DNA from: a virus
Length of the DNA stretch: 64,000 bases
IMG/VR virus record: IMGVR_UViG_3300025121_000027
Location: 43,006 to 107,005 of that record
Direction: 5' to 3' (one strand)
In this document: in pieces, positions 41,150-56,444 of the stretch
Numbering within the stretch: position 1 is the stretch's first letter
Layout: each line of letters opens with the position of its first letter
The notes under the pieces: generated by a model
What the model was told of the DNA's origin: nothing
The model's input: the letters and a program-made list of their open reading frames with translations, nothing else
The model's database searches: none
Translations under genes and position numbers: made by a program

Positions 41150-41565
41150 GTTTTTTTATTTCCTTTCTTTCTCTTTAGAAAGTCTTGTTTCCAAAAGCAA
41201 TTCTCAAATATTCTAATTATTCTATGCCTTGCTGCTTCCATTTCTAATTCTGTTGTAAATCTACTGTTGGCAAGATACCATAAATCCCCGAATAGAATTT
41301 CAAGTACTTCATGAAAAGCAATCTTCTCTATCTCTGTTTCTTCTGGTGTCGCATTCCAATCCTTTTGTAATGTAATGCAGCAAGTTTTAGACTCCATATC
41401 GCTTGTTGCAAATGCTCTTGCATCTTCTTCTGTTTGGCAATGTTCTATGCATAATTCTATATCAAACATGCCAAATCTCTCTATCCAATATTCTGCTTCT
41501 TTCTTAAATCGCACAAAATCTTGTGCTGTTGTTTTGTAATTATTTTCATAGTTCTTTTCTATCAT
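41146..41565 (-). CDS. Zincin-like hypothetical protein
   Basis: IAFHEVLE (HExxE variant of HExxH). Confidence 0.45.
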   Translation of the reverse strand: MIEKNYENNYKTTAQDFVRFKKEAEYWIERFGMFDIELCIEHCQTEEDARAFATSDMESKTCCITLQKDWNATPEETEIEKIAFHEVLEILFGDLWYLANSRFTTELEMEAARHRIIRIFENCFWKQDFLKRKKGNKKT

Positions 41566-44258
41566 TCGGATATTCCTTTTATTGCTTTTGCTTTTGCTTT
41601 TGCTTCAATCGCTAAATCTTCTTTATCACAGACAAGAGCGGCAGAAGATAACTTTAGCCATACTTCATAATCGGCAGGATACTTTTTAAGATATTCTTTA
41701 TAGTGAACAATTGCTTCGCCGTGTTTTTTTAGATTGCAAAGTAAATCCGCAATTATAGGAAGAAACGAATCAAATTCTTCTGCACCATTCATTGCTTCTA
41801 AAATGGTATCAATTCCGTATATAATTTTAGATGTATCTTCTTTTGTTTCTCCGTCGCATACAAGTACTTGCCCAAGTTCAAATTTATATCTTTTCTTTTC
41901 TGGATATTCTTTAACGAGTTGATTGTAAATAGGAATTGATTTTTCATATTCCTTGATTTGGAAATGTACCGTAGCAAGCCCCCACCTTGCTACTTCGTTT
42001 GTTGGAGATTTATCAACTGCTTTTTCGAGCATCTCTTTTGCTTTTGTGAAGTCTTTTTCTTTTCTACCTATCTCTTGTGCGTCAAACATTAATTGGATAG
42101 ATTCAATTGTATCGCTATTATCTGGAAGTTCTTTTGCTTTTTTAATTGCTTCATTAAATAGGCGATATGCTTTTAATAAAACATCAGTCGCATTTTCATC
42201 TATAAGTTTAAATTTACTTGCTTCAAGCATAGGTCTTGCGAAATTACCAACAGCAAAGTATTGTTCCGCATCTTCTATATTTGGCTCTGGTTCTTTCTGT
42301 TTTGGAATAAGTAAAGATAAATCTCTTGCTTCGGATACTTTTGTTAATTGTTGTAGTGTCTCTTTATAGGATTGCTTCAATTGTTTACAGGCATCAAATG
42401 CCGCTTGCAATATAATTCTATTTCTTTCAATTCTAATTTTAGCATCTTCTAATGAAGTAAGAATATGATCTTGATTACCATCAACTTTCATTGCTGCATG
42501 GTTAATCTTTCTTGTTGCGCCATACAAAGCGAGAATAACAAGAGGCAATCTAACAGCTATATTATGTGCGTTATCACTATAGAGTTTATTGCTTGAAAGA
42601 AGTTTATTGAATTTGTCTGTTTGATCTTTCTTCAATTTTTTTAAAGTTAGTGCTTTCAGTTTTGAATTTGTATCAAGTGCTTTCTTTGCATTTACTTGAC
42701 ATTCGTTCAAAAGAGATATTTCTTTTTCAAGAAGAGGTATTGATTCATCTACAAGTTCTAATGCATTACTACAATTAGAAAGCAATGGTTTAAGTTTATC
42801 TCTTTTATCTTCAATTTTATCTTTACAATATGTTTCCAATGCTCTCTTCAAAGACATTCTTTTTGCGCCTTGAATATTAGCACCACCTTCAGTCGCATTG
42901 ATTACATGAGAATCCATTCCTTTAATGAATCGTTCAAACGAAGTAATGAAAGAAGCAAGGCCAACATTCGTTATAACTTCACCACCAAAATATCCAGCGA
43001 CAGGAATAGGTGGCCCCATAGAAATATCTTGTACTTTGTTCAAATGACAACGTGGGTCTTGCACTTCCCATTTAATATCGCCTTGCTCGCTTCGTTTTAA
43101 AATACCCCTGCTATCTGCTTGTTGGAAATGAGATTGCTCGGAATCATATGCTAAATCTTGGCCGATCATAATCAAAGGAGAACAACCCAAGAGAATACTT
43201 AGGCCGTAGCACATATGAGCAACTGAACCGCCTTGCAAAGTCCATCCTTTATCAGAAAGGATTTTGTGTATTCTATTCTTATGATCTGGATGCATATCTA
43301 TTTGCGGCGAGCAAGCGACAAACATAGGCCCTTGCCATCTTTTAAGTAATGGGGCAAAAGACCTATTCAAAGCAACAAGTGGAATATTGCTTTCCATCAA
43401 TCCTTCATAATGCGTTAGATTGACTTCGCCATAATCAACAGAGCAAATGAAATCTGGATTGATACCATAAGCAAGCAACGGCCTTAATGCTTGTCCTACT
43501 GCAATAATGATTGCATTTTCTTGAGCCTCGATTAACAGATGAAGATTTTTAGAAAGAGAAGGGCCAGTAGAAACAAGAATGGCGGGAAGTCCTTTGTACA
43601 GCCCTTCAAGTTCTCTAACGCCTCTTCTATGGATAACGTATGGCAAATTGCTTATATCGTTATCGGCAATTTGTTTCCCTGCATTAGCAACCGTTCCGAT
43701 ATTGCATCTTGTTTGATTCAGAATAGATAATGCTTCAAAAGAAATTTGCTGATATGCATGATTGTCTATTGTATAACCTTCAATACAAGTTGCCCAATCG
43801 TCAATAACGTACTTCTCATTAATCAACTCCAACATATAAGATAGATCATCGATAGTTGGAGCAATCATCAACTTTTCTTCTTTTATTGCTTTTGAAATAT
43901 CTATTCTTTGTAGAGCCGCTTTCAATAGTCCTGGTTCGGATTCTACTACAATAATAATATGTTTATCTTCTGCTTTGTTTAATGCTTCTTGCAGAAAATA
44001 ACCAAGGCCAATGCCGATAATCATTGTCGCATTGGAACTATTGAAAGAAAAATCTTTTAGTCTTGCATCCGCTTCTTTTTTCCATCCTTCAATTGGATAC
44101 AGAGATTTTCTTTTTGTTCCTTTAACAATTAGAAGATTGTCTGTATTGTCTTCACTCTTGATTAGTTCTACCCATTCTGGAAGATTTGCTTTTTCTATCT
44201 TTTCAATAAACTCTGGAATAAGATGGTGCTTTAATGCTTCGATATTTCTATTGAACAA
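41562..44258 (-). CDS. maf: Maf-family (DUF115/MAF_flag10) nonulosonate glycosyltransferase with C-terminal TPRs
   Basis: GIGLGY, AILVSTGPSLSKN, GINPDF..SVD, GGSVAH, LGC.P..MIGQDLAY, INATEGGA.I.G; TPR-like helices after about aa 720. Confidence 0.85.
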   Translation of the reverse strand: MFNRNIEALKHHLIPEFIEKIEKANLPEWVELIKSEDNTDNLLIVKGTKRKSLYPIEGWKKEADARLKDFSFNSSNATMIIGIGLGYFLQEALNKAEDKHIIIVVESEPGLLKAALQRIDISKAIKEEKLMIAPTIDDLSYMLELINEKYVIDDWATCIEGYTIDNHAYQQISFEALSILNQTRCNIGTVANAGKQIADNDISNLPYVIHRRGVRELEGLYKGLPAILVSTGPSLSKNLHLLIEAQENAIIIAVGQALRPLLAYGINPDFICSVDYGEVNLTHYEGLMESNIPLVALNRSFAPLLKRWQGPMFVACSPQIDMHPDHKNRIHKILSDKGWTLQGGSVAHMCYGLSILLGCSPLIMIGQDLAYDSEQSHFQQADSRGILKRSEQGDIKWEVQDPRCHLNKVQDISMGPPIPVAGYFGGEVITNVGLASFITSFERFIKGMDSHVINATEGGANIQGAKRMSLKRALETYCKDKIEDKRDKLKPLLSNCSNALELVDESIPLLEKEISLLNECQVNAKKALDTNSKLKALTLKKLKKDQTDKFNKLLSSNKLYSDNAHNIAVRLPLVILALYGATRKINHAAMKVDGNQDHILTSLEDAKIRIERNRIILQAAFDACKQLKQSYKETLQQLTKVSEARDLSLLIPKQKEPEPNIEDAEQYFAVGNFARPMLEASKFKLIDENATDVLLKAYRLFNEAIKKAKELPDNSDTIESIQLMFDAQEIGRKEKDFTKAKEMLEKAVDKSPTNEVARWGLATVHFQIKEYEKSIPIYNQLVKEYPEKKRYKFELGQVLVCDGETKEDTSKIIYGIDTILEAMNGAEEFDSFLPIIADLLCNLKKHGEAIVHYKEYLKKYPADYEVWLKLSSAALVCDKEDLAIEAKAKAKAIKGISE

Positions 44259-47410: not shown

Positions 47411-47664
47411 TTTTGCTTTTCTCCTTTTTTGAGTTCTTTTATGGTAGATACCATTTTGCAGAAATCAAATAAGTATTTACGATCATTAAGAACTAAAACA
47501 ACATTAGTTTTCTTTTCTATTGAAAGAATCATACACTCTTCTTCACAAACATTTTGACTGCTTCCAGGAATCGCACTAACTACAATTTCTCTTATATGAA
47601 TTGTATTAAGTTTTCTTTCTTTTCTTTCTGCATACATTTTACCTTCCCTCCTTTTTAAATACAT
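47407..47664 (-). CDS. Hypothetical protein
   Basis: Overlaps both neighbours; GGAGG RBS before MYAERK. Confidence 0.55.
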   Translation of the reverse strand: MYLKRREGKMYAERKERKLNTIHIREIVVSAIPGSSQNVCEEECMILSIEKKTNVVLVLNDRKYLFDFCKMVSTIKELKKGEKQK

Positions 47665-49105
47665 CTTTAAGAGTCAACAAGGGAATCTGCATGATCTCAT
47701 CCACCAAACTATACTTACTTGTTCGCATGGTCTTAATCAAATTGGGAAGTGAATAATAATCTACATTATTCCCAAGCTCAAACTTTTGCAATTGAATATC
47801 TGCACTCTCGCAGTAAGAAGACATTCTATCATTTTCGCCAGGAACATGAAACATATAAACAGTTGGCTCAATACCAATATCTCTTCTATAATCATCATAA
47901 GCATTGTGAAAATAAGGAGAGCGATTATCACCGCCATCAGTACAGACAGCAATTCCGTTTACCACAATTCCTTTTTCTTTAATTAGCTCCAAGCCACAAC
48001 CAATAGAAGTGCTGCCAGTTGCAGTCAATCGTTTTGTATCATTCTTAATTTGCTCCAATGTCTTTCCTGTAACATCAAAATAAATCGGAGTATCATTAAA
48101 AAAAACAAGATGAACATTACCCTTAACTTGTCTTGCAATCAAAGCAGCAACATTTCTTGCAACTTCAATAGAAGTCTGCATAGAGCCAGAGCGATCCCCG
48201 AGCACAAGCCAATCACCATCAATACTACTATTGTCCAACTTATCTTCTTGCGCTTTGTGAAGTTTAGCGGAAAGCTTCTTATCTGTCTTTGCTACCGCTT
48301 CAGCAGCTTTCGTTATCTTCATCGAAGGTGTTTTCTTATCTTTCTGCATCCTTACTATACCATTATCATAAGCAGCTTTCAATGCAGGGTTTTCAAATAC
48401 TCCCATTTTTTGAAGCATGTTTGTATTTGTAATAAGTTCTGCTCCTGTCATGCGTTCAATCAGAGCAAGAATAACATCGGACTTTCCCTTAATACCACCA
48501 AGAGCACCAACAGCAATAAGATATGGTATCTTATGATTAAGAATTGCACCAGCGGCTTCTTGCGCTTTCATGTTTTTTAAATCTTTGACAACTTGAAAAA
48601 CACTATTCTTTGGATATTTCTTTTCAAATAGAATCTCTTGTGCTCGTTTATTTGGCTTGACATGATAGATAGCATAAAGACTTTTCATGGATTCTCTATG
48701 CTGCAATACAGTTCTATCCCACCAACCAATAGACTTTTCTCTTTCTCTGATAAACATTCTAACAGCTTGCTTTAACCAAGTACCGCCACCCTCTTGACAT
48801 AGCGGCAATTCTCTATGGTATCTACAAGCCCTCAAGAAGTCTTTAGGGGAAAGCTTGCAGAGATGAGCGGCGGCATTTTCATATAGTTCATCATCTTTGC
48901 TGCTGCGTAAAGATAGAATAGGAAAAGCCACTTTACTATCTCTTACTTCGCCCTTCAGTTCATTCCACGCAATGATATGTGCAAACAGTTCTGGCTCATG
49001 CTTTACTGCTTTCAAACCGATATCATTGTAAATAGAGAGATTGCCATGACCGACGCGCAGGAGTTGATTCACAATTTGATTTTGCGATGCTGCGATCTTT
49101 TCCAT
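47639..49105 (-). CDS. Divergent Ro60/TROVE-like helical domain plus vWA (MIDAS) protein
   Basis: Start refined to MEKIAAS (488 aa); ~290 aa helical N-domain then vWA with LGDRSGSM, TGSTS and CTDGGDN; flanked by tRNA-like RNAs as Ro60 loci are. Confidence 0.7.
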   Translation of the reverse strand: MEKIAASQNQIVNQLLRVGHGNLSIYNDIGLKAVKHEPELFAHIIAWNELKGEVRDSKVAFPILSLRSSKDDELYENAAAHLCKLSPKDFLRACRYHRELPLCQEGGGTWLKQAVRMFIREREKSIGWWDRTVLQHRESMKSLYAIYHVKPNKRAQEILFEKKYPKNSVFQVVKDLKNMKAQEAAGAILNHKIPYLIAVGALGGIKGKSDVILALIERMTGAELITNTNMLQKMGVFENPALKAAYDNGIVRMQKDKKTPSMKITKAAEAVAKTDKKLSAKLHKAQEDKLDNSSIDGDWLVLGDRSGSMQTSIEVARNVAALIARQVKGNVHLVFFNDTPIYFDVTGKTLEQIKNDTKRLTATGSTSIGCGLELIKEKGIVVNGIAVCTDGGDNRSPYFHNAYDDYRRDIGIEPTVYMFHVPGENDRMSSYCESADIQLQKFELGNNVDYYSLPNLIKTMRTSKYSLVDEIMQIPLLTLKDVFKKEGR

Positions 49106-49106
49106 T

Positions 49107-49217
49107 TTATTTTTCCTTTTGGTTGTTAGATTTTTTACAATAGAACAAATTATAGTGCTTTGTCGCTCTAACAGCAATTCTTAATCTTTTTGCTGCTTTT
49201 CTTTTATGTTTATTCAT
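49107..49217 (-). CDS. 36-aa basic peptide MNKHKRKAAKRLRIAVRATKHYNLFYCKKSNNQKEK
   Basis: Read manually; its stop is 1 nt before the ATG of the Ro-like gene. Confidence 0.4.
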   Translation of the reverse strand: MNKHKRKAAKRLRIAVRATKHYNLFYCKKSNNQKEK

Positions 49218-49335: not shown

Positions 49336-49378
49336 AATAGGCTTGAGAATCAGAATACTATTGTTTCTCAAGCCTATT
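49336..49378 (-). terminator. 14-bp hairpin followed by a U-tract
   Basis: AATAGGCTTGAGAA / TTCTCAAGCCTATT; A-run at 49331-49337 gives the U-tract on the minus strand. Confidence 0.55.
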
Positions 49379-49559
49379 AAAATTTGAGTGCGGATGCATT
49401 GTTCCTTCGATGTCCTTCGATAAAGGATTAGCACTCATATTCCTAAACTCATCAGCCGTTTTTAGCCATCCTCATATATTACTTTTGAGCATAATGATTT
49501 GCCTATGAGGACTGAAGGTATAAAACAAATCATATGTGACGTCTCAAAAGAAATCTAAC

Positions 49560-49634
49560 TGGTCGCCGAAGAAGGACTCGAACCTTGCATGAATGTTCCC
49601 AAAACACTCGTGTTACCACTACACTACTTCGGCG
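49560..49634 (-). tRNA. tRNA-Pro(UGG), apparently 8-bp acceptor / 4-bp T stem
   Basis: CGCCGAAG/CUUCGGCG, A73, CCA; AGUGU-UUUGGGA-ACAUU; AAGG-UUCGAGU-CCUU. Confidence 0.85.
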
Positions 49635-49644
49635 TAAAACTAAA

Positions 49645-49774
49645 AAAAGGGGAAAGTCGAAAAAGTTTTATACTACTTTTGATACAGGACTTGAACCTGC
49701 TACCGATTGCTTGGAATGCAATTGCTCTACCAAATTGAGCTAATCATGTAAACTTTTAAGCGGTATCCCCTTTT
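49645..49774 (-). ncRNA. Y-RNA-like element E1 carrying a UCC-anticodon tRNA module (49680-49746)
   Basis: Outer stem AAAAGGGGA/UCCCCUUUU, loop UACCGCUU/UCGACUU, inner stem AAAAGUUU/AAACUUUU, ACA, then a cloverleaf with 4-bp acceptor. Confidence 0.8.
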
Positions 49775-49783
49775 GTGTTCAAA

Positions 49784-49925
49784 TTAGCAAGAAGTCGTAT
49801 AAGCTATGTTGATTATACAGATTGATTTAGAGTCAATTGCGTATACCATTCCGCCTTATTCTCCGAAGAAAATAGAAGGAGTCGAACCTTCAAGTATCAT
49901 GTAAGCTTAATGCGGTGCTTGCTAA
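49784..49925 (-). ncRNA. Y-RNA-like element E2 carrying a circularly permuted CUA-anticodon tRNA (49810-49899)
   Basis: Outer stem UUAGCAAG/CUUGCUAA, CACCGCAU/UACGACUU, UAAGCU/AGCUUA, ACA; arm order T arm, UUCG-capped acceptor, D arm, anticodon arm. Confidence 0.82.
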
Positions 49926-49936
49926 ACTTTTTAAAA

Positions 49937-50007
49937 ATGGCGAGAAGTTATATAAGCTCTCTATTGTTTACTCCAGAAACATGTAAGCTTAAGATGATAC
50001 CCGCCAT
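49937..50007 (-). ncRNA. Y-RNA-like element E3, scaffold only
   Basis: AUGGCGGG/CUCGCCAU, UAUCAUCU/UAUAACUU, UAAGCUU/GAGCUUA, ACA, short apical hairpin. Confidence 0.72.
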
Positions 50008-50016
50008 AAGAACTTT

Positions 50017-50150
50017 TAAATCAGTAAGTCGAATAAGCTTTTTACTTTGGTTGCAATTGTTGGATTTGAACCAACTACTTATTCTTTATGAGAGAATCGC
50101 TCTACCAAATTGAGCTAAGTTGCGTGTAGGCTTAATCTGTAACTGATTTA
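50017..50150 (-). ncRNA. Y-RNA-like element E4 carrying a complete CAU-anticodon tRNA with CCA (50048-50124)
   Basis: UAAAUCAGU/ACUGAUUUA, UACAGAU/UUCGACUU, UAAGC/GCUUA, ACA; 77-nt tRNA CGCAACU...AAUUGCA-ACCA. Confidence 0.82.
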
Positions 50151-50161
50151 ATTTTCAAAGA
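50150..50161 (-). promoter_or_regulatory. boxA-like antitermination element
   Basis: UCUUUGAAAAUU between promoter and RNA array; identical copy at 50470-50481. Confidence 0.65.
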
Positions 50162-50180
50162 TCAATTGTTATTCTGAAAT

Positions 50181-50209
50181 ACTATAATAGAAAAGTTTTA
50201 AAAAATAAA
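50181..50209 (-). promoter_or_regulatory. Conserved promoter, copy 2 (drives the ncRNA array)
   Basis: TTTATT-N17-TATAGT. Confidence 0.72.
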
Positions 50210-50226
50210 GAGTAGATAAAATTTTT

Positions 50227-50465
50227 GTTTGCATGGCTGCCAGGATTCGAACCTGGACAACCGATTTGCGTAGCTTCTGCCCTACGCTCGTACGCTGCTG
50301 CGCGAGTAAATCCTCGATTGATCCGCACAGTTCGTCAGCAGATCCTTCTCGGCCAAAGTGCGGTGCGTTTCCGTGGGTTATTCAGCGTCATTTTGGAAGA
50401 TTGTTCATGCAATCTTTTGTCTACCCAAATGTCCTTTCGCCAACTTTCCGCCACAGCCAGCAAAC
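50227..50465 (-). ncRNA. Giant (~239 nt) tRNA-like RNA
   Basis: 12-bp terminal stem GUUUGCUGGCUG/CAGCCA(U)GCAAAC, UGGCGGAA D-arm start, T arm CCAGG-UUCGAAU-CCUGG, several internal hairpins; GC-rich; has its own promoter and boxA. Confidence 0.72.
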
Positions 50466-50469
50466 TATT

Positions 50470-50481
50470 AATTTTCAAAGA
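50470..50481 (-). promoter_or_regulatory. boxA-like antitermination element
   Basis: UCUUUGAAAAUU, identical to 50150-50161. Confidence 0.65.
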
Positions 50482-50505
50482 CCATCTTAAACTTGATTCT
50501 GACTT

Positions 50506-50534
50506 ATTATAATAGAGACTTTTAGAAAAATAAA
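50506..50534 (-). promoter_or_regulatory. Conserved promoter, copy 3
   Basis: TTTATT-N17-TATAAT. Confidence 0.75.
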
Positions 50535-50546
50535 GCCAAGCTAAAA

Positions 50547-51365
50547 TTAATTTCCAGTATAGCTTTTCGGCATAGGTATCTTATCCGAATTTGCCAACTT
50601 AGAACTTGCTTCCTGTATTTGCTTATCACAATCAACAATTTTCTTCATTATATCTTTGGCCTTTTCCGGTACAGAATCAAAAGCAAGCCTTACCAAATCC
50701 ATCCATCGTTTATTATTTTTCCCTCTAATTTCTTCTATCTTATTGATTAATTCTTGATCGCTTTGTTTTTCAGAAGATATGCCAAAAACTTTTTCAAAAG
50801 GATCTATATTTTTCTGTTCTTTCAACAATCCATATTCATAAACATCTACAAATTCACCATTAAGAAACATTGCTTCCTTAAAGATACCCTCTTTTTTAAA
50901 CCCGAGTTTTTCAAATACTTTTTGCATACCGATATTTGTTGCTGCTGTGCCACTCCAGATTCGATTCAATCCAAGTTTTTTAAATCCATGCTCGCATATC
51001 TCTTTAACCGCAAAAGTCGCAACTCCTTTACCATAATAATCTGGTTCACCAATTACAATGGCAATTTCAGCAGACCTATTAATTAGATCAATTCTTTGAA
51101 GTGAAACATTACCGATATGCTTAGGTCCTTTAACTAAGATACTCCAAATTATTCTTGATTCGTCATATTGCAATGTTTCTTTTATGTCTGTATCTGGAGA
51201 GTACGGGAAAAGTCCATGACTGTTTTTTGAAACTACTTCTGGACGATTAAACCAAAACTTATAATCAGAATTAATATTTTTGTTGTCGTATACTTCACAG
51301 AATGGAGCAAGATGAATAGTTCCTGCTTTTTCACTATAGGTTGTTGCTAAGACATTATAATTCAT
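50547..51365 (-). CDS. RimJ/RimL-type GNAT acetyltransferase (PseH-like) with an extra C-terminal helical domain
   Basis: HIGNVSL..ID..NRSAE..I.IGE..Y.GKG.A, N.GM..V.EKLGF.KEG. Confidence 0.8.
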   Translation of the reverse strand: MNYNVLATTYSEKAGTIHLAPFCEVYDNKNINSDYKFWFNRPEVVSKNSHGLFPYSPDTDIKETLQYDESRIIWSILVKGPKHIGNVSLQRIDLINRSAEIAIVIGEPDYYGKGVATFAVKEICEHGFKKLGLNRIWSGTAATNIGMQKVFEKLGFKKEGIFKEAMFLNGEFVDVYEYGLLKEQKNIDPFEKVFGISSEKQSDQELINKIEEIRGKNNKRWMDLVRLAFDSVPEKAKDIMKKIVDCDKQIQEASSKLANSDKIPMPKSYTGN

Positions 51366-51733
51366 TAACCATTCTCCTTTAACATCTCTTCTATTTTATT
51401 CCAATATAAATGTTCAACTGGTATTCCAAATTCATCCGCATTTACTTTTTCAATATGAATACCAAATGATTCTGTCCAGCCAGGAGCGCAAACAATAATC
51501 ATCTTATCCGCCCACTCTACAAGGATTGGCAAATCTTGAGCAAGCCAAAAGTTATGATCTAAATGACTGACTCCTTTTAATACTTTTGAAATCGGGTGGC
51601 TGTGAGATAAAGGAGAAAATACTACATGACCCGCTTTCATTAAAATGCCAGCAATCTTATCTGCTATATCAACGCGATATTCACAAACAGAATAATCCTT
51701 ATGAGAATAAGGGCAAGCCAAATAGATTTTCAT
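51365..51733 (-). CDS. Nucleoside 2-deoxyribosyltransferase-like protein (DUF1937-like)
   Basis: KIYLACPYSH, VFSPLSHSH, GW.ES.G...E. Confidence 0.8.
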   Translation of the reverse strand: MKIYLACPYSHKDYSVCEYRVDIADKIAGILMKAGHVVFSPLSHSHPISKVLKGVSHLDHNFWLAQDLPILVEWADKMIIVCAPGWTESFGIHIEKVNADEFGIPVEHLYWNKIEEMLKENG

Positions 51734-51735
51734 TT

Positions 51736-51996
51736 TTAAATCCTTTTCAGTTTAATTGCTTCATGTTTGTTTAGTTTGTCAATAAATACATCTACCATAT
51801 CTGGATGGCATACAACCAAATTAGCGCTTACAAAATAATAAAATTCAGAAGATGGAACTTGTTTAGTATATTTCTTTCTATACTTCTTAATCCATCTTGC
51901 ATTACTTTTCTTTTTAGGATGTTTAGTTTGAATAACTTCTAAAAGATTATTGTTTGTTTTTATTCTTATATTTGTTGGAAGAGGGTTAATCACCAT
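51736..51996 (-). CDS. Hypothetical basic protein
   Basis: ORF track; packed between neighbours. Confidence 0.55.
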   Translation of the reverse strand: MVINPLPTNIRIKTNNNLLEVIQTKHPKKKSNARWIKKYRKKYTKQVPSSEFYYFVSANLVVCHPDMVDVFIDKLNKHEAIKLKRI

Positions 51997-52957
51997 TTAA
52001 CAATCCTTTAATTACTTCAATATTGTCTGTATACAAAGGATTTCTATCGTCGCTGTATAGGCAATCCTTTAAAGAAGTTATCCACAAAGAAATTCCTTGC
52101 GGCGCTATAATATACTTATCTTCTTTCTCATTTGTTCTGAATATCTCTTCTTGATTGATTAACATTTCATGCGCTTTTTCCCCAGGTCTTCTTCCTACAA
52201 TTTTCCAATTACTTTCATCTGTTCCTGTCGTCGCTTTTATAAATACTTCTAACGAACAAGAAATCATCTTTGGAATATAAGTATACCCAGGCATACAGCT
52301 ATCAAGACAATCTAAAACAAACTTTGCAACTTTAGGAAGCGGAATCCAAAAGCGAGTCATTTCAGGATCAGTAATTGGTATTTTCTTTCCTTTATCAAGA
52401 AGTTTAATCATGTCTAAAATACTACCTCTTGAACCAATTACATTTCCATATCTAACAACAGCAAAATTAGTTCCCCACCCACCGCTATAAATGCTACCTC
52501 TTGACCATAATTTTTCAGCGCACATTTTGCTTGCGCCATATAGATTGATACTCTCCACCGCCTTATCGGTGCTAATAAACATTGCGCTTTTTACATTGGC
52601 AGCAATGCAAGCCATCATAACATTTTCTGTCCCATATACATTTGTCTTGATATATTCTAATGGATTATCTTCTGCTATCGGTACATGTTTCAATGCAGCA
52701 GTATGAATAACATGAGTAACACCTTTCAATGCTTCCGCTAATCTTCGATAGTCTCTAACGTCTCCTATAATAAAAGCAATAGGAGGCATGTCTTTTCCTT
52801 CTAATTGTTTCTTTAAATTATACTGCTTTAATTCGTCCCTACTATAAATCCGTATCCCTTTAATGTTTTTATTTCCTTCAAGTTGATTGAGAATTGCTTT
52901 TCCTAATGAACCAGTACCACCAGTTATTAGATATTCGCGTTTATATTCTATTTTCAT
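51986..52957 (-). CDS. pseB: UDP-N-acetylglucosamine 4,6-dehydratase (PseB/FlaA1-like)
   Basis: ITGGTGSLG, YSRDELKQ, HTAALKHVP, STDKA...NLYGASK, RYGNV.GSRGS, ITDPEMTRFW, RPGEK.HE. Confidence 0.9.
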   Translation of the reverse strand: MKIEYKREYLITGGTGSLGKAILNQLEGNKNIKGIRIYSRDELKQYNLKKQLEGKDMPPIAFIIGDVRDYRRLAEALKGVTHVIHTAALKHVPIAEDNPLEYIKTNVYGTENVMMACIAANVKSAMFISTDKAVESINLYGASKMCAEKLWSRGSIYSGGWGTNFAVVRYGNVIGSRGSILDMIKLLDKGKKIPITDPEMTRFWIPLPKVAKFVLDCLDSCMPGYTYIPKMISCSLEVFIKATTGTDESNWKIVGRRPGEKAHEMLINQEEIFRTNEKEDKYIIAPQGISLWITSLKDCLYSDDRNPLYTDNIEVIKGLLNGD

Positions 52958-53178
52958 TTAGCCTCTTTCGTTCTATCGTCTGCTGAAACAACAGTATCTA
53001 TAATACAGTATTTACAGAAACGGCCTTGATTAAAGTATTTACCGTTGCCAGTAATAATCTTTATAGATAGTTGTTTGTTAGTTATTGGGTCTTTATAAAT
53101 TATAAATGTAAGATCTGGATGACTGAAATTTTTATTGGTAATCTCCATGCCGCATATATCGCAAAATGTTTTAACCAT
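52954..53178 (-). CDS. Small zinc-finger protein
   Basis: FCDICG ... FCKYC. Confidence 0.6.
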   Translation of the reverse strand: MVKTFCDICGMEITNKNFSHPDLTFIIYKDPITNKQLSIKIITGNGKYFNQGRFCKYCIIDTVVSADDRTKEAK

Positions 53179-53180
53179 AG

Positions 53181-53729
53181 TTATACTTTCTGATAACTTT
53201 GTTGAAGCATCCTGAATATCTTTGCTTTAATAGAAGCAGAAGAGCGACCAAGAGTTTTAGATGTTTCTTGAATAAAATGATTTAATCCACTACGCAAACA
53301 TGCTTCTTCTACTACCGCCCACTTTATCTTCTCACTTAAATTCATTGCTTCTTTCTTATCGTCTTCAACATAGCTTACAGTTTGTTTTCCTGTAATGCGT
53401 TCCGTAATTGCTGCTTGAACATATCCTTTAGAAGCAAGATGTTTATTAGCAAGCTTCTCTTCAATCTTTTCTTCTACCCATTGCTGAATAGACTTAGGTC
53501 TTGATTTATTATAAAACTTTTTTTCTACTTCATTATATTCTTCTACAAGAGGATAAGTATCAAATGGTCCTTTAAAAGACATAAACTTTTCATCCCAAAC
53601 AATCCATCCGGCTTTATATCTATGGATGTTGCCAATCTTTTCTATCGGTTCTTCATTTGCAATTTGAGAATAAATTTCAGTATTCACTTTTACTTCTCCT
53701 TTCGCACTTTGATTGATGGTCTTTTGCAA
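53181..53729 (-). CDS. Hypothetical protein with C-terminal HTH-like segment
   Basis: SKTLGRSSASIKAK. Confidence 0.5.
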   Translation of the reverse strand: MQKTINQSAKGEVKVNTEIYSQIANEEPIEKIGNIHRYKAGWIVWDEKFMSFKGPFDTYPLVEEYNEVEKKFYNKSRPKSIQQWVEEKIEEKLANKHLASKGYVQAAITERITGKQTVSYVEDDKKEAMNLSEKIKWAVVEEACLRSGLNHFIQETSKTLGRSSASIKAKIFRMLQQSYQKV

Positions 53730-54565
53730 TCTTTTTCATCTGCTCTTAAATCAATATCTTTTCTATCTTCTCTCGACATAAAATTATCAATCCAGTTTTG
53801 CTCTACATCTGCTTTCTTCATTGCATTTGCAATATCGATTGTTTTAAATGCTGTTTCTGGATACCAGCAATGGCCATGCCTTGATTCATTACCTTTCAAA
53901 TCTACAAGATCAAAATGCATTTCAATTACTTTTGCCCCAGCATTAATAGCCGCAAGAATAGAGCCGATGTTTCTTGTATGGTCTGAATACCCAATCGCTC
54001 CACATACATGAGAAAAAGACTGAATGATTCCTTTTAGAATATCTATTCTTGCATCTTCTGCCGGATAAGAACTAATGCAATGGAAAATACAATCTTCATC
54101 ATTAGGTTTCATCTCTTTTGTAATAGAATAGATTTCAGAACGAGTACACATACCAGTAGAGACAAAAACAGGAAGATTTGTTTCTTTGCATTTACTAATC
54201 AATTCAGAGTTCATACATTCATAACTTGATACTTTTAGAAAGTCTACATACTTCGATACTACTTCAATATCTTCTACATTAAAAACAGAACAGCCAAAAC
54301 CAATCTTATGTAAATTGCAAAGTTGTTTTGTGTGAGCAAGAACTTCTTCTGTAATTTCTCCTCTCTTCGCCATTGCTATCCTATCTGGAAATTCTTTTGA
54401 CCATAATTTTTCTGCTTTATAGTATTGTAATTTGATAGCATCAAAGCCACAAATTCTTGCCGCTTCTACAAGCAAAGAAAGTCTATCTGGATCTTGATTA
54501 TGATTGCTGCCTAATTCAGCTACAAAATAAACGTCGTTATTTTGAGAATAAGGAAATGCTTTCAT
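53690..54565 (-). CDS. NeuB/PseI-family nonulosonic acid synthase
   Basis: VAELGSNHN, DAIKLQ, KVSSYE, STGM, HCISSYP, GYSDHT, GA.VIEMHF. Confidence 0.92.
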   Translation of the reverse strand: MKAFPYSQNNDVYFVAELGSNHNQDPDRLSLLVEAARICGFDAIKLQYYKAEKLWSKEFPDRIAMAKRGEITEEVLAHTKQLCNLHKIGFGCSVFNVEDIEVVSKYVDFLKVSSYECMNSELISKCKETNLPVFVSTGMCTRSEIYSITKEMKPNDEDCIFHCISSYPAEDARIDILKGIIQSFSHVCGAIGYSDHTRNIGSILAAINAGAKVIEMHFDLVDLKGNESRHGHCWYPETAFKTIDIANAMKKADVEQNWIDNFMSREDRKDIDLRADEKDCKRPSIKVRKEK

Positions 54566-54864
54566 AGTTTAATCCTTGTTTTATCAGTAGTATTTTCCAA
54601 AGTAATAGAAATTTTTCTATCTCCTATTTTAGTAATTACTACAACATAAATAGGAGCTAAGTACCCAGGTTCCGTAACAGGAAGTTTTTCATGGAAAGCA
54701 TGATATTCAATAGTATTGCCAAAGTCTGTAAATTCTGCTTTATAAATTATAAGACCAGAAGAAAATAACTTCTTTGCAACTTCATAACTATTTTCAAGAC
54801 AATATTTTGTGATAGCAAATTTACAACATCTATTATTTATAACAGGATTGCTCATATCTTTCAC
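54562..54864 (-). CDS. Hypothetical protein
   Basis: ORF track. Confidence 0.55.
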   Translation of the reverse strand: MKDMSNPVINNRCCKFAITKYCLENSYEVAKKLFSSGLIIYKAEFTDFGNTIEYHAFHEKLPVTEPGYLAPIYVVVITKIGDRKISITLENTTDKTRIKL

Positions 54865-54867
54865 CTA

Positions 54868-55170
54868 TTAGTTAAAGTTGAATTTGATTTTTAGAATGTT
54901 GGTAATATACTCTTTGATCTTTACTTTGATATAGTTCTCCAAAGGAAGATAATCGTCCATGTCTTCTATGTATCTATCGCTATAATTATCATCTTCTGAG
55001 TTCCAAATTTCTTCCCCGAGAAACTTTATTGCGACACCTTCGCCATCTGAATGAATTTCCAATAATCCACTTCTATCCATTACAAATTTATTCTCTGAGT
55101 TCTCTTCATAGATTTCAAGATTGATATTCTCCACAGTATTAAATGCTTCTTCAAGTAGTTTCCAACTCAT
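54868..55170 (-). CDS. Acidic hypothetical protein
   Basis: ORF track; ATGA overlap. Confidence 0.55.
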   Translation of the reverse strand: MSWKLLEEAFNTVENINLEIYEENSENKFVMDRSGLLEIHSDGEGVAIKFLGEEIWNSEDDNYSDRYIEDMDDYLPLENYIKVKIKEYITNILKIKFNFN

Positions 55171-56444
55171 ACTAATTCACTCCTATATTCCCAAACTTTA
55201 TTGAATGCTTTTCCGATATCTATCATGTCATTTGTTGTACTGTTTGGAGCATGAGCGATTGTCAAAAATAGCTTCTCTTTATATAGAGATTCTACAACTG
55301 GTCTATGAATTGCTTCTTGATCTTTTCTCCAAGGCATTTGATAGATAGGCTTAATATAGCCGCATCCAATTTGAACACCTTCGCCATCTCTCCCATCTCT
55401 TGGAGTTAATTCCGCTTTAACCACTTCAATAAACTTATCTCTATGTAGGCTATTTGCTTTGCTTTTATCCCACAAATAAGCAGCAACATAATATGAATGA
55501 GTACATCCGCATCTAATTTTTGCAGGAGTAATTGCAGGAATTTGACTTAACATAATATTAAGATTCATAACGTTTTCGCGTCTTGTTTCAATGTTATAAT
55601 CTAACTTTTTCAATTGCTCTCTTGCTACTGCTGCTTGAAATTCTGTCATGCGAAGATTAAGACCAATCATATTATAATGAATAGATTCCTCGCCAGAATC
55701 ATAAATGTCATTCATTACTGATTCTGCATGATTCATAATCAGCCTGCATCTATTTTCTAAATTTCCACTGTTTGTAACAATCATCCCACCTTCGCCGCAA
55801 GTCATATGCTTGCCAAAGTTCAAAGAGAAAACACTTATATCCGCAATTGTTCCTGAATATCTATCGAAGTATTTTGAGCCTGGTGCCTGAGCACAATCTG
55901 AAATAAGATATATTTCTTTTTTGTACTTCTCTTCTGCTTCCCTAATAATAGATTTCAAATTAGAATAGTCACAAGGTTGGCCGAAAATATCTACTGCAAT
56001 AATTGCTTTTGTTTTCTCTGTAATTAATGATACAACACTTTTAGGATCGATACAAAAATAATCCTCTTCTACATCTGCAAAGACAGGAGTTGCTCCAAAC
56101 CATAGGGGAACAGTAGCAGAACAAGTCATACTATAAGGAGTTACAATAACTTCATCTCCTTGTTTCAAGCCGATTGCGGCGCAAGCAATAAACAAACCAG
56201 ACGTAGCACTATTACAAGCAATAGCTTGTCCGTTGACATTAAATTTATAAGACCAAGACAATTCAAGCCCTTGAATTTCTGGTCCACCCATAGAATGAGG
56301 ACCTTTGTTTGCTCTATATCCAGATGGTCTCCCAAAATTAAAAACTCGCTTTAGTGCTTCTTTTTCATTTTCATTATATGTATTTTGGCTCGGAAAATTT
56401 GTAGTTCTGATTTTTCGCCCACCAAAAATAGCAAGTTCAGACAT
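55167..56444 (-). CDS. DegT/DnrJ/EryC1/StrS aminotransferase (PseC-like)
   Basis: NSATSGL, GDEVIV, DCAQAPG, FSLNFGKHMTCGEGG (PLP-binding Lys), G.NLRMTEFQAA. Confidence 0.92.
   Translation of the reverse strand: MSELAIFGGRKIRTTNFPSQNTYNENEKEALKRVFNFGRPSGYRANKGPHSMGGPEIQGLELSWSYKFNVNGQAIACNSATSGLFIACAAIGLKQGDEVIVTPYSMTCSATVPLWFGATPVFADVEEDYFCIDPKSVVSLITEKTKAIIAVDIFGQPCDYSNLKSIIREAEEKYKKEIYLISDCAQAPGSKYFDRYSGTIADISVFSLNFGKHMTCGEGGMIVTNSGNLENRCRLIMNHAESVMNDIYDSGEESIHYNMIGLNLRMTEFQAAVAREQLKKLDYNIETRRENVMNLNIMLSQIPAITPAKIRCGCTHSYYVAAYLWDKSKANSLHRDKFIEVVKAELTPRDGRDGEGVQIGCGYIKPIYQMPWRKDQEAIHRPVVESLYKEKLFLTIAHAPNSTTNDMIDIGKAFNKVWEYRSELV

What the first reader, a model, noticed from the sequence alone, without database searches (positions are those of the whole stretch)
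49645..49774. tRNA module with UCC anticodon and acceptor stem cut to 4 bp; D arm identical to E4
Seen: UGAU/AUCA mini-acceptor, D arm UAGCUCAAUUUGGUAGAGC identical to that of E4, anticodon arm AUUGC-AUUCCAA-GCAAU, T arm GCAGG-UUCAAGU-CCUGU, no CCA. It would look like a pseudo-tRNA, but all arms pair and the same UGAU/AUCA helix also closes the E2 cargo. Inference: duplication of a unit followed by anticodon diversification, with selection on the elbow and anticodon rather than on charging.
Basis: partly seen in the sequence, partly recalled or inferred. Interest (0 to 1): 0.7.

Follow-up and report, generated by a model that had tools for sequence, protein, structure and literature searches.

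The report
tRNA-shaped head on Ro60-linked RNA handle
This is not a decaying tRNA gene: it is one of four small phage RNAs that share a conserved double-helix "handle", here carrying an uncharged tRNA look-alike, next to a hidden relative of the RNA-binding ring protein Ro60, a new variant of the known Ro60/Y-RNA pairing.

Summary
On the minus strand, 49645-49774 is a 130-nt unit. It has a 9-bp outer helix, a conserved internal loop (5' UAC / 3' ACUU), an 8-bp middle helix and an invariant UACAUG. On top sits a tRNA body with D, anticodon (UCC) and T arms, joined by a 4-bp acceptor remnant and lacking CCA. Rfam tRNA scores it 47.8 bits over model positions 4-67.

It is the last of four such units, which lie 540 nt upstream of a 488-aa gene. 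That protein's predicted fold matches Ro60/Rsr, although Pfam TROVE misses it. A covariance model of the unit finds full-length copies beside this protein in 58 of 72 viral contigs, always on the gene's strand, and every helix covaries. Acceptor stems of 0-4 bp are the majority class (39 of 66). A roughly 91%-identical groundwater relative carries two compensatory double changes in the T stem and keeps UCC.

Best reading: a Y-RNA-like tRNA mimic, with a probable Ro60 docking handle and a tRNA-shaped effector head. Binding is inferred, not shown.

Selection on anticodon identity is not shown. This scan has noted similar Ro60-like/handle-RNA arrays on other DNA. I found no paper describing this handle.

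The parts
49645..49774 (-).
   Evidence: Fold. R1 model match of 99 bits over positions 1-128, though this unit is a seed sequence. Rfam tRNA hit inside it.
49766..49774 (-). Outer helix, 5' strand AAAAGGGGA. It pairs with 49645-49653.
   Evidence: The family outer helix covaries, with all 5 pairs showing double changes.
49645..49653 (-). Outer helix, 3' strand UCCCCUUUU.
49761..49765 (-). 5' side of the conserved internal loop (UAC) plus two basal pairs (CG). The family consensus is YAC-UG.
   Evidence: Column counts in 72 distinct units: A 59, C 53, U 53, G 52.
49654..49659 (-). 3' side: basal CG plus the conserved ACUU loop. The family consensus is CG-ACUY.
   Evidence: Column counts: C 50, G 62, A 64, C 59, U 59 of 72.
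49745..49757 (-). Middle helix 5' strand (AAAAGUUU), running into the near-invariant UACAUG motif.
   Evidence: UACAYG column counts: U 69, A 67, C 70, A 70, Y 70, G 69 of 72. It is invariant in the 11 seed sequences.
49661..49668 (-). Middle helix 3' strand AAACUUUU.
49680..49746 (-). tRNA-shaped head: 4-bp acceptor remnant, D arm, anticodon arm (UCC at 49715-49713), 5-nt variable region and T arm. No discriminator or CCA.
   Evidence: Rfam RF00005, 47.8 bits, model positions 4-67. Compensatory changes at 49699/49685 and 49698/49686 in a related contig.
49784..49925 (-). Neighbouring unit U3: same handle. The cargo is a circularly permuted tRNA-like body, in the order T arm, 7-bp acceptor capped by UUCG, D arm, anticodon arm (CUA).
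   Evidence: Sequence, fold, R1 29.4 bits. Same type in L002 and L004.
49937..50007 (-). Neighbouring unit U2: handle with only a short loop as cargo.
   Evidence: R1 25.5 bits.
50016..50151 (-). Neighbouring unit U1: handle enclosing a complete tRNA (CAU). The acceptor has 7 positions with two mismatches, followed by A-CCA.
   Evidence: ARAGORN and Rfam. R1 112.8 bits, seed sequence.
47639..49105 (-). Gene for a 488-aa Ro60/Rsr-like protein: a helical-repeat ring plus a vWA domain with a MIDAS DxSxS motif. It is the presumed partner of the handles.
   Evidence: AF2 model, pLDDT 85.4. The top 13 Foldseek hits are all Ro60/TROVE, E down to 3.5e-11, TM 0.57-0.65. D304, S306 and S308 are invariant. 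PHROG 850 'RNA-binding protein', E 1.4e-10.
50171..50223 (-). Repeated upstream element in front of the array, with a TATAGT-type box followed by UCUUUGAAAAUUAA. A second copy lies at 50496-50548.
   Evidence: Direct repeats D3 (77%) and D11. No sigma-70 consensus site was called.

Best explanation
The element is one module of a phage-encoded array of Y-RNA-like small RNAs.

The lower part is a conserved handle. It runs outer helix, asymmetric loop 5' YAC / 3' ACUY flanked by a U.G or C-G pair and a G-C pair, middle helix, then the single-stranded UACAYG motif. It is most likely the docking site for the Ro60-like ring protein encoded just downstream.

The upper part is a tRNA-shaped head with an intact elbow and an intact anticodon loop. 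Its acceptor end is buried in the handle, so it cannot be aminoacylated and is likely a poor RNase P substrate.

By analogy with Y RNAs, the head presents a tRNA surface that brings a tRNA-binding factor to Ro60, or keeps that factor away from real tRNAs.

Shown here: the sequence anatomy, covariation of all helices, linkage to the protein family across many phages, the Ro60 fold of the protein, and maintenance of pairing in a close relative.

Inferred: that Ro60 binds the handle, that the unit is a stable RNA, and what the head recruits.
For: 1. The neighbour gene has a Ro60/Rsr fold. The top 13 Foldseek hits are all Ro60/TROVE, including Thermus phage phiLo, Xenopus, human and D. radiodurans. 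Its MIDAS motif is invariant.
2. Covariance model R1 gives full-length hits of at least 58 bits in 58 of 72 IMG/VR loci chosen only for carrying the protein. All 196 hits are on the gene's strand and most lie upstream. Many strong hits were not seeds, for example L038 and L025 at 105 bits.
3. In the phage's own 107-kb genome the handle occurs only in this array. In five whole related records, all hits above 85 bits lie beside the Ro60-like gene.
4. Covariation: 94.8% of cells are paired, all 27 pairs show double changes, and no shuffle in 500 reached the observed score. Slid controls give 30-48%.
5. The handle consensus comes from 72 distinct units.
6. Short acceptors (0-4 bp) occur in 39 of 66 units. 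Only 3 of those 39 have CCA.
7. A related contig in run X11 has C-G to U-A and A-U to G-C changes in the T stem. UCC is kept and the acceptor pair U-A becomes U.G.
8. Precedent: Y RNAs with tRNA-like domains lie within 4 kb of Ro60, on the same strand, in more than 250 bacteria and 22 phages (PMC4201824). Phage phiLo Ro60 binds two upstream Y-like RNAs (PMC12135203).
Against: - No binding or expression data exist: no RNA run is listed.
- The canonical Ro60-site motifs are absent. There is no GNCGAAN0-1G on the 5' strand, and Rfam YrlA does not match this unit. The sister unit U1 reaches only 21.5 bits against a cut-off of 69.
- Pfam TROVE does not hit the protein.
- A hairpin followed by a T run (49336-49378) and tRNA-Arg lie between the array and the gene, so they may be separate transcripts.
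- The loci were selected through the protein, so the reverse test (RNA predicts protein) rests on six whole records only.
- The 4-bp acceptor is not in the minimum-energy fold.
Confidence: 0.68

Rival explanations
1. It is a precursor form of a working tRNA. The handle is a leader-trailer processing or quality-control signal, for example for RNase III-type or RNase P/Z cuts, and the head ends up as a non-canonical tRNA-Gly(UCC).
For: - Sister units in the family hold complete tRNAs. Of 27 units with a 5-8 bp acceptor, 13 have N-CCA after it, and this phage's U1 carries A-CCA.
- M. smegmatis YrlA, which has a 7-bp stem, is cut by RNase P and receives CCA (PMC4201824).
- The array sits in a tRNA cluster with tRNA-Pro and tRNA-Arg.
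Against: - This unit has only 4 acceptor pairs, no discriminator and no CCA.
- The short-acceptor class usually lacks CCA (3 of 39) and often carries an extra hairpin instead (27 of 39).
- The ordinary tRNAs of the same cluster have no handle.
- No CCA-adding enzyme, RtcB or RNA ligase was found in the phage genome.
Confidence: 0.12
2. The handle is real and functional, but it is read by some factor other than the Ro60-like protein, either another phage protein or a host RNase. Alternatively the units act in cis on expression of the downstream gene. In either case the linkage to the gene reflects a shared RNA-metabolism gene block.
For: - The handle lacks the known Ro60-binding motifs.
- A terminator-like hairpin separates the array from the gene (repeat I3).
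- The synteny was measured only around the protein.
Against: - The pairing persists down to 37-45% protein identity, in 58 of 72 loci and on the same strand, although surrounding genes differ.
- In six whole records the handles lie only beside this gene.
- This is the same linkage criterion that found the validated Y RNAs (PMC4201824).
Confidence: 0.15
3. It is a decaying tRNA-Gly pseudogene, or a tRNA fragment left by integration or recombination.
For: The acceptor is truncated, there is no CCA, and ARAGORN does not call it.
Against: - All arms pair, and there are compensatory changes in a close relative.
- The same truncated design recurs with covariation in dozens of phages.
- Both flanks form the conserved handle.
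- The genome has direct terminal repeats and is rated complete.
Confidence: 0.03

Closest known systems
D. radiodurans Yrn1 (Y RNA bound by Rsr, tethers PNPase)
   Same: It is encoded beside Ro60. The 5' and 3' ends form the protein-binding stem. The head can be drawn in the normal tRNA order (D-like, anticodon-like arm, T arm), with the acceptor position continuous with the stem (PMC4201824).
   Different: Yrn1's resemblance to tRNA is weak: it has no full D arm, a 6-nt 'anticodon' loop and no variable region. This unit scores as a tRNA in Rfam and has a canonical 7-nt loop with U33 and A37. Yrn1 keeps the metazoan-type Ro site; this handle has its own motifs (YAC/ACUY, UACAYG).
YrlA-type bacterial and phage Y RNAs (Rfam RF02553; crystal structure 6CU1)
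   Same: It is a Ro60-linked RNA whose second module is a close tRNA mimic with D/T-loop tertiary contacts and no free CCA end. Acceptor length varies between species (PMC4201824; bioRxiv 10.1101/312249).
   Different: YrlA is circularly permuted (T arm, closed acceptor stem-loop, D arm). Its anticodon stem is replaced by the Ro stem and it has no anticodon loop. This unit is not permuted, keeps the anticodon arm and joins through the acceptor. RF02553 gives no match to it.
Thermus phage phiLo Ro60 with Yrl1/Yrl2
   Same: A phage Ro60 with Y-like RNAs immediately upstream. The protein is among the top structural matches (9kop, 9l5y). In vitro it forms complexes with host PNPase (PMC12135203).
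   Different: The phiLo RNAs were picked by the CGAA motif and are not described as tRNA-like arrays. Here there are four units with a different handle and tRNA-shaped cargo.
Canonical tRNA-Gly(UCC) / Rfam RF00005
   Same: The D arm, anticodon arm, 5-nt variable region, T arm, G18G19, the U54-U55-C56 region, U8 and A14 are all present.
   Different: Acceptor pairs 1-3 with 70-72, the discriminator and CCA are missing. Both ends continue into a 19-bp interrupted stem.
Dictyostelium Class I RNAs
   Same: The design is shared: a short stem joining the two ends, a conserved single-stranded motif next to the 5' stem strand, and a variable remainder (PMC7919456). The motif, which I recall as CCUUACAGCAA, shares UUACA with this handle's YUUACAYG.
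   Different: They are eukaryotic, 42-65 nt long and have no tRNA-like cargo. Positions 8-11 of the motif differ. No Class I model matched at E <= 10. This is a lead from earlier scan notes, not a tested homology.

Membership tests
Y RNA (Ro60-associated small RNA) | Encoded close to a Ro60 gene, on the same strand | tested here: met
   The unit ends 540 nt upstream of the Ro60-fold gene on the same strand. The same arrangement holds in 58 of 72 related loci.
Y RNA (Ro60-associated small RNA) | The 5' and 3' ends pair into a stem that carries a conserved protein-binding site | tested here: met
   An interrupted stem of 9 + 2 + 8 bp, with conserved loop and wobble positions and covariation.
Y RNA (Ro60-associated small RNA) | Canonical Ro60 site: metazoan bulged helix, or the bacterial GNCGAAN0-1G on the 5' strand | tested here: not met
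   No such motif in the unit. The family consensus is YAC-UG ... CG-ACUY.
Y RNA (Ro60-associated small RNA) | Physically bound by Ro60 | not testable with these tools
   Needs co-immunoprecipitation or a gel shift.
YrlA (Rfam RF02553) | Score at or above the Rfam gathering cut-off (69 bits) | tested here: not met
   No match to this unit at E <= 10. U1 scores 21.5 bits. There was no YrlA hit in 20 related loci.
YrlA (Rfam RF02553) | Permuted order T arm, closed acceptor stem-loop, D arm, with no anticodon loop | tested here: not met
   The order here is D, anticodon, T, with a 7-nt anticodon loop. The neighbouring unit U3 is permuted but keeps an anticodon arm.
tRNA (functional, chargeable) | Cloverleaf body scoring above the Rfam RF00005 cut-off | tested here: met
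   47.8 bits against 29, but only as a local match to positions 4-67.
tRNA (functional, chargeable) | 7-bp acceptor stem with free ends, a discriminator, and CCA either present or addable | tested here: not met
   4 bp only. The flanks ACA and AAAG do not pair, there is no CCA, and ARAGORN makes no call.
Ro60/Rsr (TROVE + vWA) protein, for the neighbouring gene | Helical-repeat ring plus a C-terminal vWA domain with MIDAS | tested here: met
   Full-length Foldseek matches to Ro60 structures, probability 1.00. DxSxS is invariant.
Ro60/Rsr (TROVE + vWA) protein, for the neighbouring gene | Pfam TROVE (PF05731) sequence match | tested here: not met
   No hit in the protein or in the genome. PDB sequence searches found no Ro60 chain.

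The most novel reading that the evidence does not exclude
The handle-tethered, unchargeable tRNA heads keep canonical anticodon loops but carry many different triplets. They could be a phage decoy or sensor set. They would display anticodon loops to host tRNA-targeting defence nucleases, or to tRNA-modifying enzymes, while the Ro60-like ring, perhaps with a host exonuclease, holds or disposes of them. That would be a counter-defence use of Ro60/Y-RNA particles built from interchangeable cargo on one handle.
Probability: 0.15. Interest if true: 0.85.

Novelty: new variant of a known kind. Interest (0 to 1): 0.62.

Why it matters
Ro60 and its Y RNAs are conserved from bacteria to humans, yet what the tRNA-like module of bacterial Y RNAs recruits is still unknown.

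This phage family offers a natural series on one handle: a complete tRNA, a tRNA with a shortened acceptor (this unit), a permuted sealed tRNA, and an empty handle. All sit beside a Ro60 relative so divergent that sequence profiles miss it.

That series makes two questions directly testable. Which part docks the protein? Which tRNA features the partner reads: the elbow, the anticodon loop or the acceptor?

It also shows that tRNA scanners and Pfam-based surveys undercount both halves of the system in viral genomes.

Tried and rejected
- No RNA holder is listed for the region, so nothing can be said about expression or RNA ends.
- GenBank phages gave only tRNA-level similarity.
- Pfam TROVE, PDB sequence searches and NCBIfam gave nothing for the protein. 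The fold search was needed.
- Rfam YrlA and all other Rfam families gave no convincing match.
- RtcB, CCA-adding enzyme and RNA ligase were not found in the phage. This lowers, but does not exclude, a repair or ligation route.
- The sigma-70 promoter scan found none.
- My own regex and duplex unit finder mis-set some boundaries. It gave about 12% as many hits on the reverse strand, so its counts are rough: about 200 units, arrays of 1-8, 186 upstream against 23 elsewhere. The unit counts rest on the covariance model instead.
- An attP or integration remnant was rejected: both tRNA ends are missing and the flanks form the handle.
- Only 3 MAG contigs in 185,579 species genomes carry the protein, so no host could be named.

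Full report
**What is there**

The window is the right-hand 64 kb of a complete 107-kb virus record with direct terminal repeats.

On the minus strand, 49645-49774 reads as follows:
- outer helix AAAAGGGGA / UCCCCUUUU
- internal loop 5' UAC / 3' ACUU, next to two C-G/G-C pairs
- middle helix AAAAGUUU / AAACUUUU
- the motif UACAUG
- a tRNA body

Rfam's tRNA model matches it at 47.8 bits over model positions 4-67, E 4e-07 for the whole window. ARAGORN does not call it. The unit folds well below shuffled controls, z = -3.0. The minimum-energy fold, however, swaps the 4-bp acceptor for an extension of the T arm.

**Context**

The unit is the last of four back-to-back units with the same handle (fold of the whole array):
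- 50016-50151 encloses a complete tRNA(CAU) with A-CCA.
- 49937-50007 has only a short loop.
- 49784-49925 holds a circularly permuted tRNA-like body, in the order T arm, 7-bp acceptor sealed by UUCG, D arm, anticodon arm with CUA. It is closed by the same UGAU/AUCA.
- 49645-49774 is this finding.

After the array come ordinary, handle-less tRNA-Pro and tRNA-Arg. Next is a 488-aa gene at 49105-47639.

Pfam sees only a weak vWA signal in that protein. TROVE is not found in the protein or the genome.

An AlphaFold model built on 32 homologues has pLDDT 85. Over its full length it matches Ro60 structures and nothing else comparably. These include the phiLo phage Ro60, Xenopus and human Ro60, and D. 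radiodurans Rsr, at E 3.5e-11 to 2.8e-07 and TM 0.57-0.65. The MIDAS DxSxS motif is invariant. PHROG 850 'RNA-binding protein' also matches.

**Relatives**

The protein family is large, with 724 database hits, and almost confined to viruses: 72 IMG/VR loci against 3 short MAG contigs.

Rfam's tRNA model found acceptor-truncated local matches next to the gene in 9 of the first 20 loci. With flanks added, each of these folds into the same handle.

I built a covariance model from 11 units:
- It finds full-length matches of at least 58 bits in 58 of the 72 loci.
- All 196 matches are on the gene's strand, and most lie upstream.
- Ordinary tRNAs reach only about 45-51 bits.
- In the phage's own genome the handle is found only in this array.
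- In five whole related records, every match above 85 bits lies beside the Ro60-like gene.

On the aligned matches, 94.8% of cells pair and all 27 pairs show double changes. No shuffle in 500 reaches the observed score, and sliding the partners drops pairing to 30-48%. The alignment was fitted to the model, which inflates these figures somewhat.

The handle consensus from 72 distinct units is: outer helix, YAC, U.G and G-C pairs, middle helix, UACAYG, cargo, middle helix, CG, ACUY, outer helix.

**The truncated acceptor is a class, not a defect**

Among 66 distinct units with the normal arm order:

| Feature | Acceptor 0-4 bp (n = 39) | Acceptor 5-8 bp (n = 27) |
|---|---|---|
| CCA after the stem | 3 | 13 |
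| Extra hairpin after the T arm | 27 | 5 |

Within the short-acceptor class:
- 30 of 39 keep GG in the D loop.
- 29 of 39 keep a UUCRANY T loop.
- 30 of 39 have a 7-nt anticodon loop. Of those 30, 25 have U33 and 29 have a purine at position 37.
- The 30 loops carry 16 different triplets.

Units with the T arm first (permuted) are also common. There were 46 pattern hits, and several have ACCA inside the cap loop.

A groundwater run (X11) holds a contig about 91% identical across 49592-49863. Within this unit it differs as follows:
- 49699 with 49685: C-G becomes U-A in the T stem.
- 49698 with 49686: A-U becomes G-C in the T stem.
- 49680: the acceptor pair U-A becomes U.G.
- 49717: loop position 32.
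- 49705: variable region.
- 49678 and 49679: linker.

UCC is unchanged, though three unchanged bases at this divergence prove little. Pairing is kept by compensation, which is the opposite of pseudogene decay.

The same contig skips 49992-50045. Array architecture therefore differs even between close relatives.

**Duplication**

The tRNA body is 71% identical to that of the tRNA-Met unit, but up to 78% identical to units of other phages. The D-stem sequence is nearly invariant across the family.

The exact 19-nt D arm, including its loop, occurs in none of 133 D arms in the 72 loci. A local copy or gene conversion of the D arm is therefore possible. A recent duplication of the whole unit is not indicated.

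**Mechanism**

The best-supported reading is a Y-RNA-like particle. The handle docks the Ro60-like ring, and the head shows a tRNA surface that cannot be charged.

This follows the known logic of Y RNAs. Yrn1 tethers Rsr to PNPase. YrlA's tRNA-like domain is modified by TruB and DusA. Y RNAs lie within 4 kb of Ro60 on the same strand (PMC4201824; bioRxiv 10.1101/312249). Phage phiLo Ro60 binds two upstream Y-like RNAs and forms complexes with host PNPase in vitro (PMC12135203).

Binding, stability and the partner of the head are inferences.

Points against:
- The canonical Ro-site motifs and the Rfam YrlA model do not match.
- A hairpin with a T run (49336-49378, repeat I3) lies between the array and the gene.
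- No RNA data exist.
- No RtcB, CCA-adding enzyme or RNA ligase was found in the phage.

**Comparison and novelty**

Ro60 with tRNA-mimicking Y RNAs in phages is a known kind. This is a new variant in four respects:
- The protein is a divergent Ro60 branch invisible to Pfam.
- The handle has its own motifs.
- The head of this unit is attached through the acceptor and keeps a full anticodon arm, unlike permuted, loop-less YrlA.
- Units come in arrays with interchangeable cargo.

My literature searches found no paper describing this handle.

Earlier notes of this scan describe similar Ro60-like/handle-RNA arrays on other DNA, and a parent note exists for this window. I reached the Ro60 reading before opening those notes and tested it here.

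Those notes also point to a resemblance with Dictyostelium Class I RNAs. The shared design is a stem plus an adjacent conserved motif (PMC7919456). Here the resemblance is limited to UUACA and stays an untested lead.

Noticed in passing
window 50227-50470 (-): A GC-richer RNA-like stretch of about 240 nt, with its own copy of the upstream repeat. Its ends pair (GCUGGCUG / CAGCCAUGC), there is a canonical T arm just before the 3' strand, and GGCGAAAGG (about 50441-50433) fits the bacterial Y-RNA motif GNCGAAN0-1G. ARAGORN and Rfam give nothing, and the fold z-score is only -1.7. In the X11 relative the central 138 nt are replaced by 87 other letters while both ends are kept.
   Followed up: partly
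window 49784-49925 (-); L002:2742-2881, L004:300-448, L010 from 1940, L034 from 1203: Circularly permuted tRNA-like cargo on the same handle recurs in relatives. Some are sealed by UUCG. Others have the discriminator plus CCA inside the cap loop, which raises the question of whether some can be opened into real tRNA ends.
   Followed up: partly
window 49992-50045: A roughly 91%-identical groundwater contig joins 49991 directly to 50046. This removes the 3' handle strand of the tRNA-Met unit and the 5' outer strand of the empty unit, so array architecture varies between close relatives (table 5).
   Followed up: no
window 50171-50223 and 50496-50548 (-): Two copies (77%) of a 53-nt element precede the array and the 240-nt RNA. 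Each has a TATAAT/TATAGT-type box and is followed by UCUUUGAAAAUUAA, a boxA-like sequence. No sigma-70 consensus promoter was called.
   Followed up: partly
window 49400-49559 (-) and 49336-49378: About 160 nt of unassigned sequence lies between tRNA-Pro and a 17-bp hairpin followed by a T run, which is likely a terminator (repeat I3). The scanner missed the hairpin because its loop is 9 nt.
   Followed up: no
window 49107-49217 (-): A possible 36-codon, lysine/arginine-rich small ORF (MNKHKRKAAKRL...) ends just at the start codon of the Ro60-like gene. It was read by eye and not tested.
   Followed up: no
window 41562-44258 and 50547-56444 (-): A nonulosonic-acid (pseudaminic-type) sugar pathway in a phage: PseB-like dehydratase (51986-52957), NeuB-type synthase (53690-54565), DegT aminotransferase (55167-56444), GNAT (50547-51365), and an 898-aa MptE/Maf-like TPR protein (41562-44258).
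   Followed up: no
related loci, 3' of short-acceptor heads (e.g. L009, L020, L023, L015, L064): Most short-acceptor units carry an extra GNRA- or UNCG-capped hairpin between the T arm and the handle (27 of 39). This phage's unit has only an unpaired AAAGUAGUAU linker there.
   Followed up: partly
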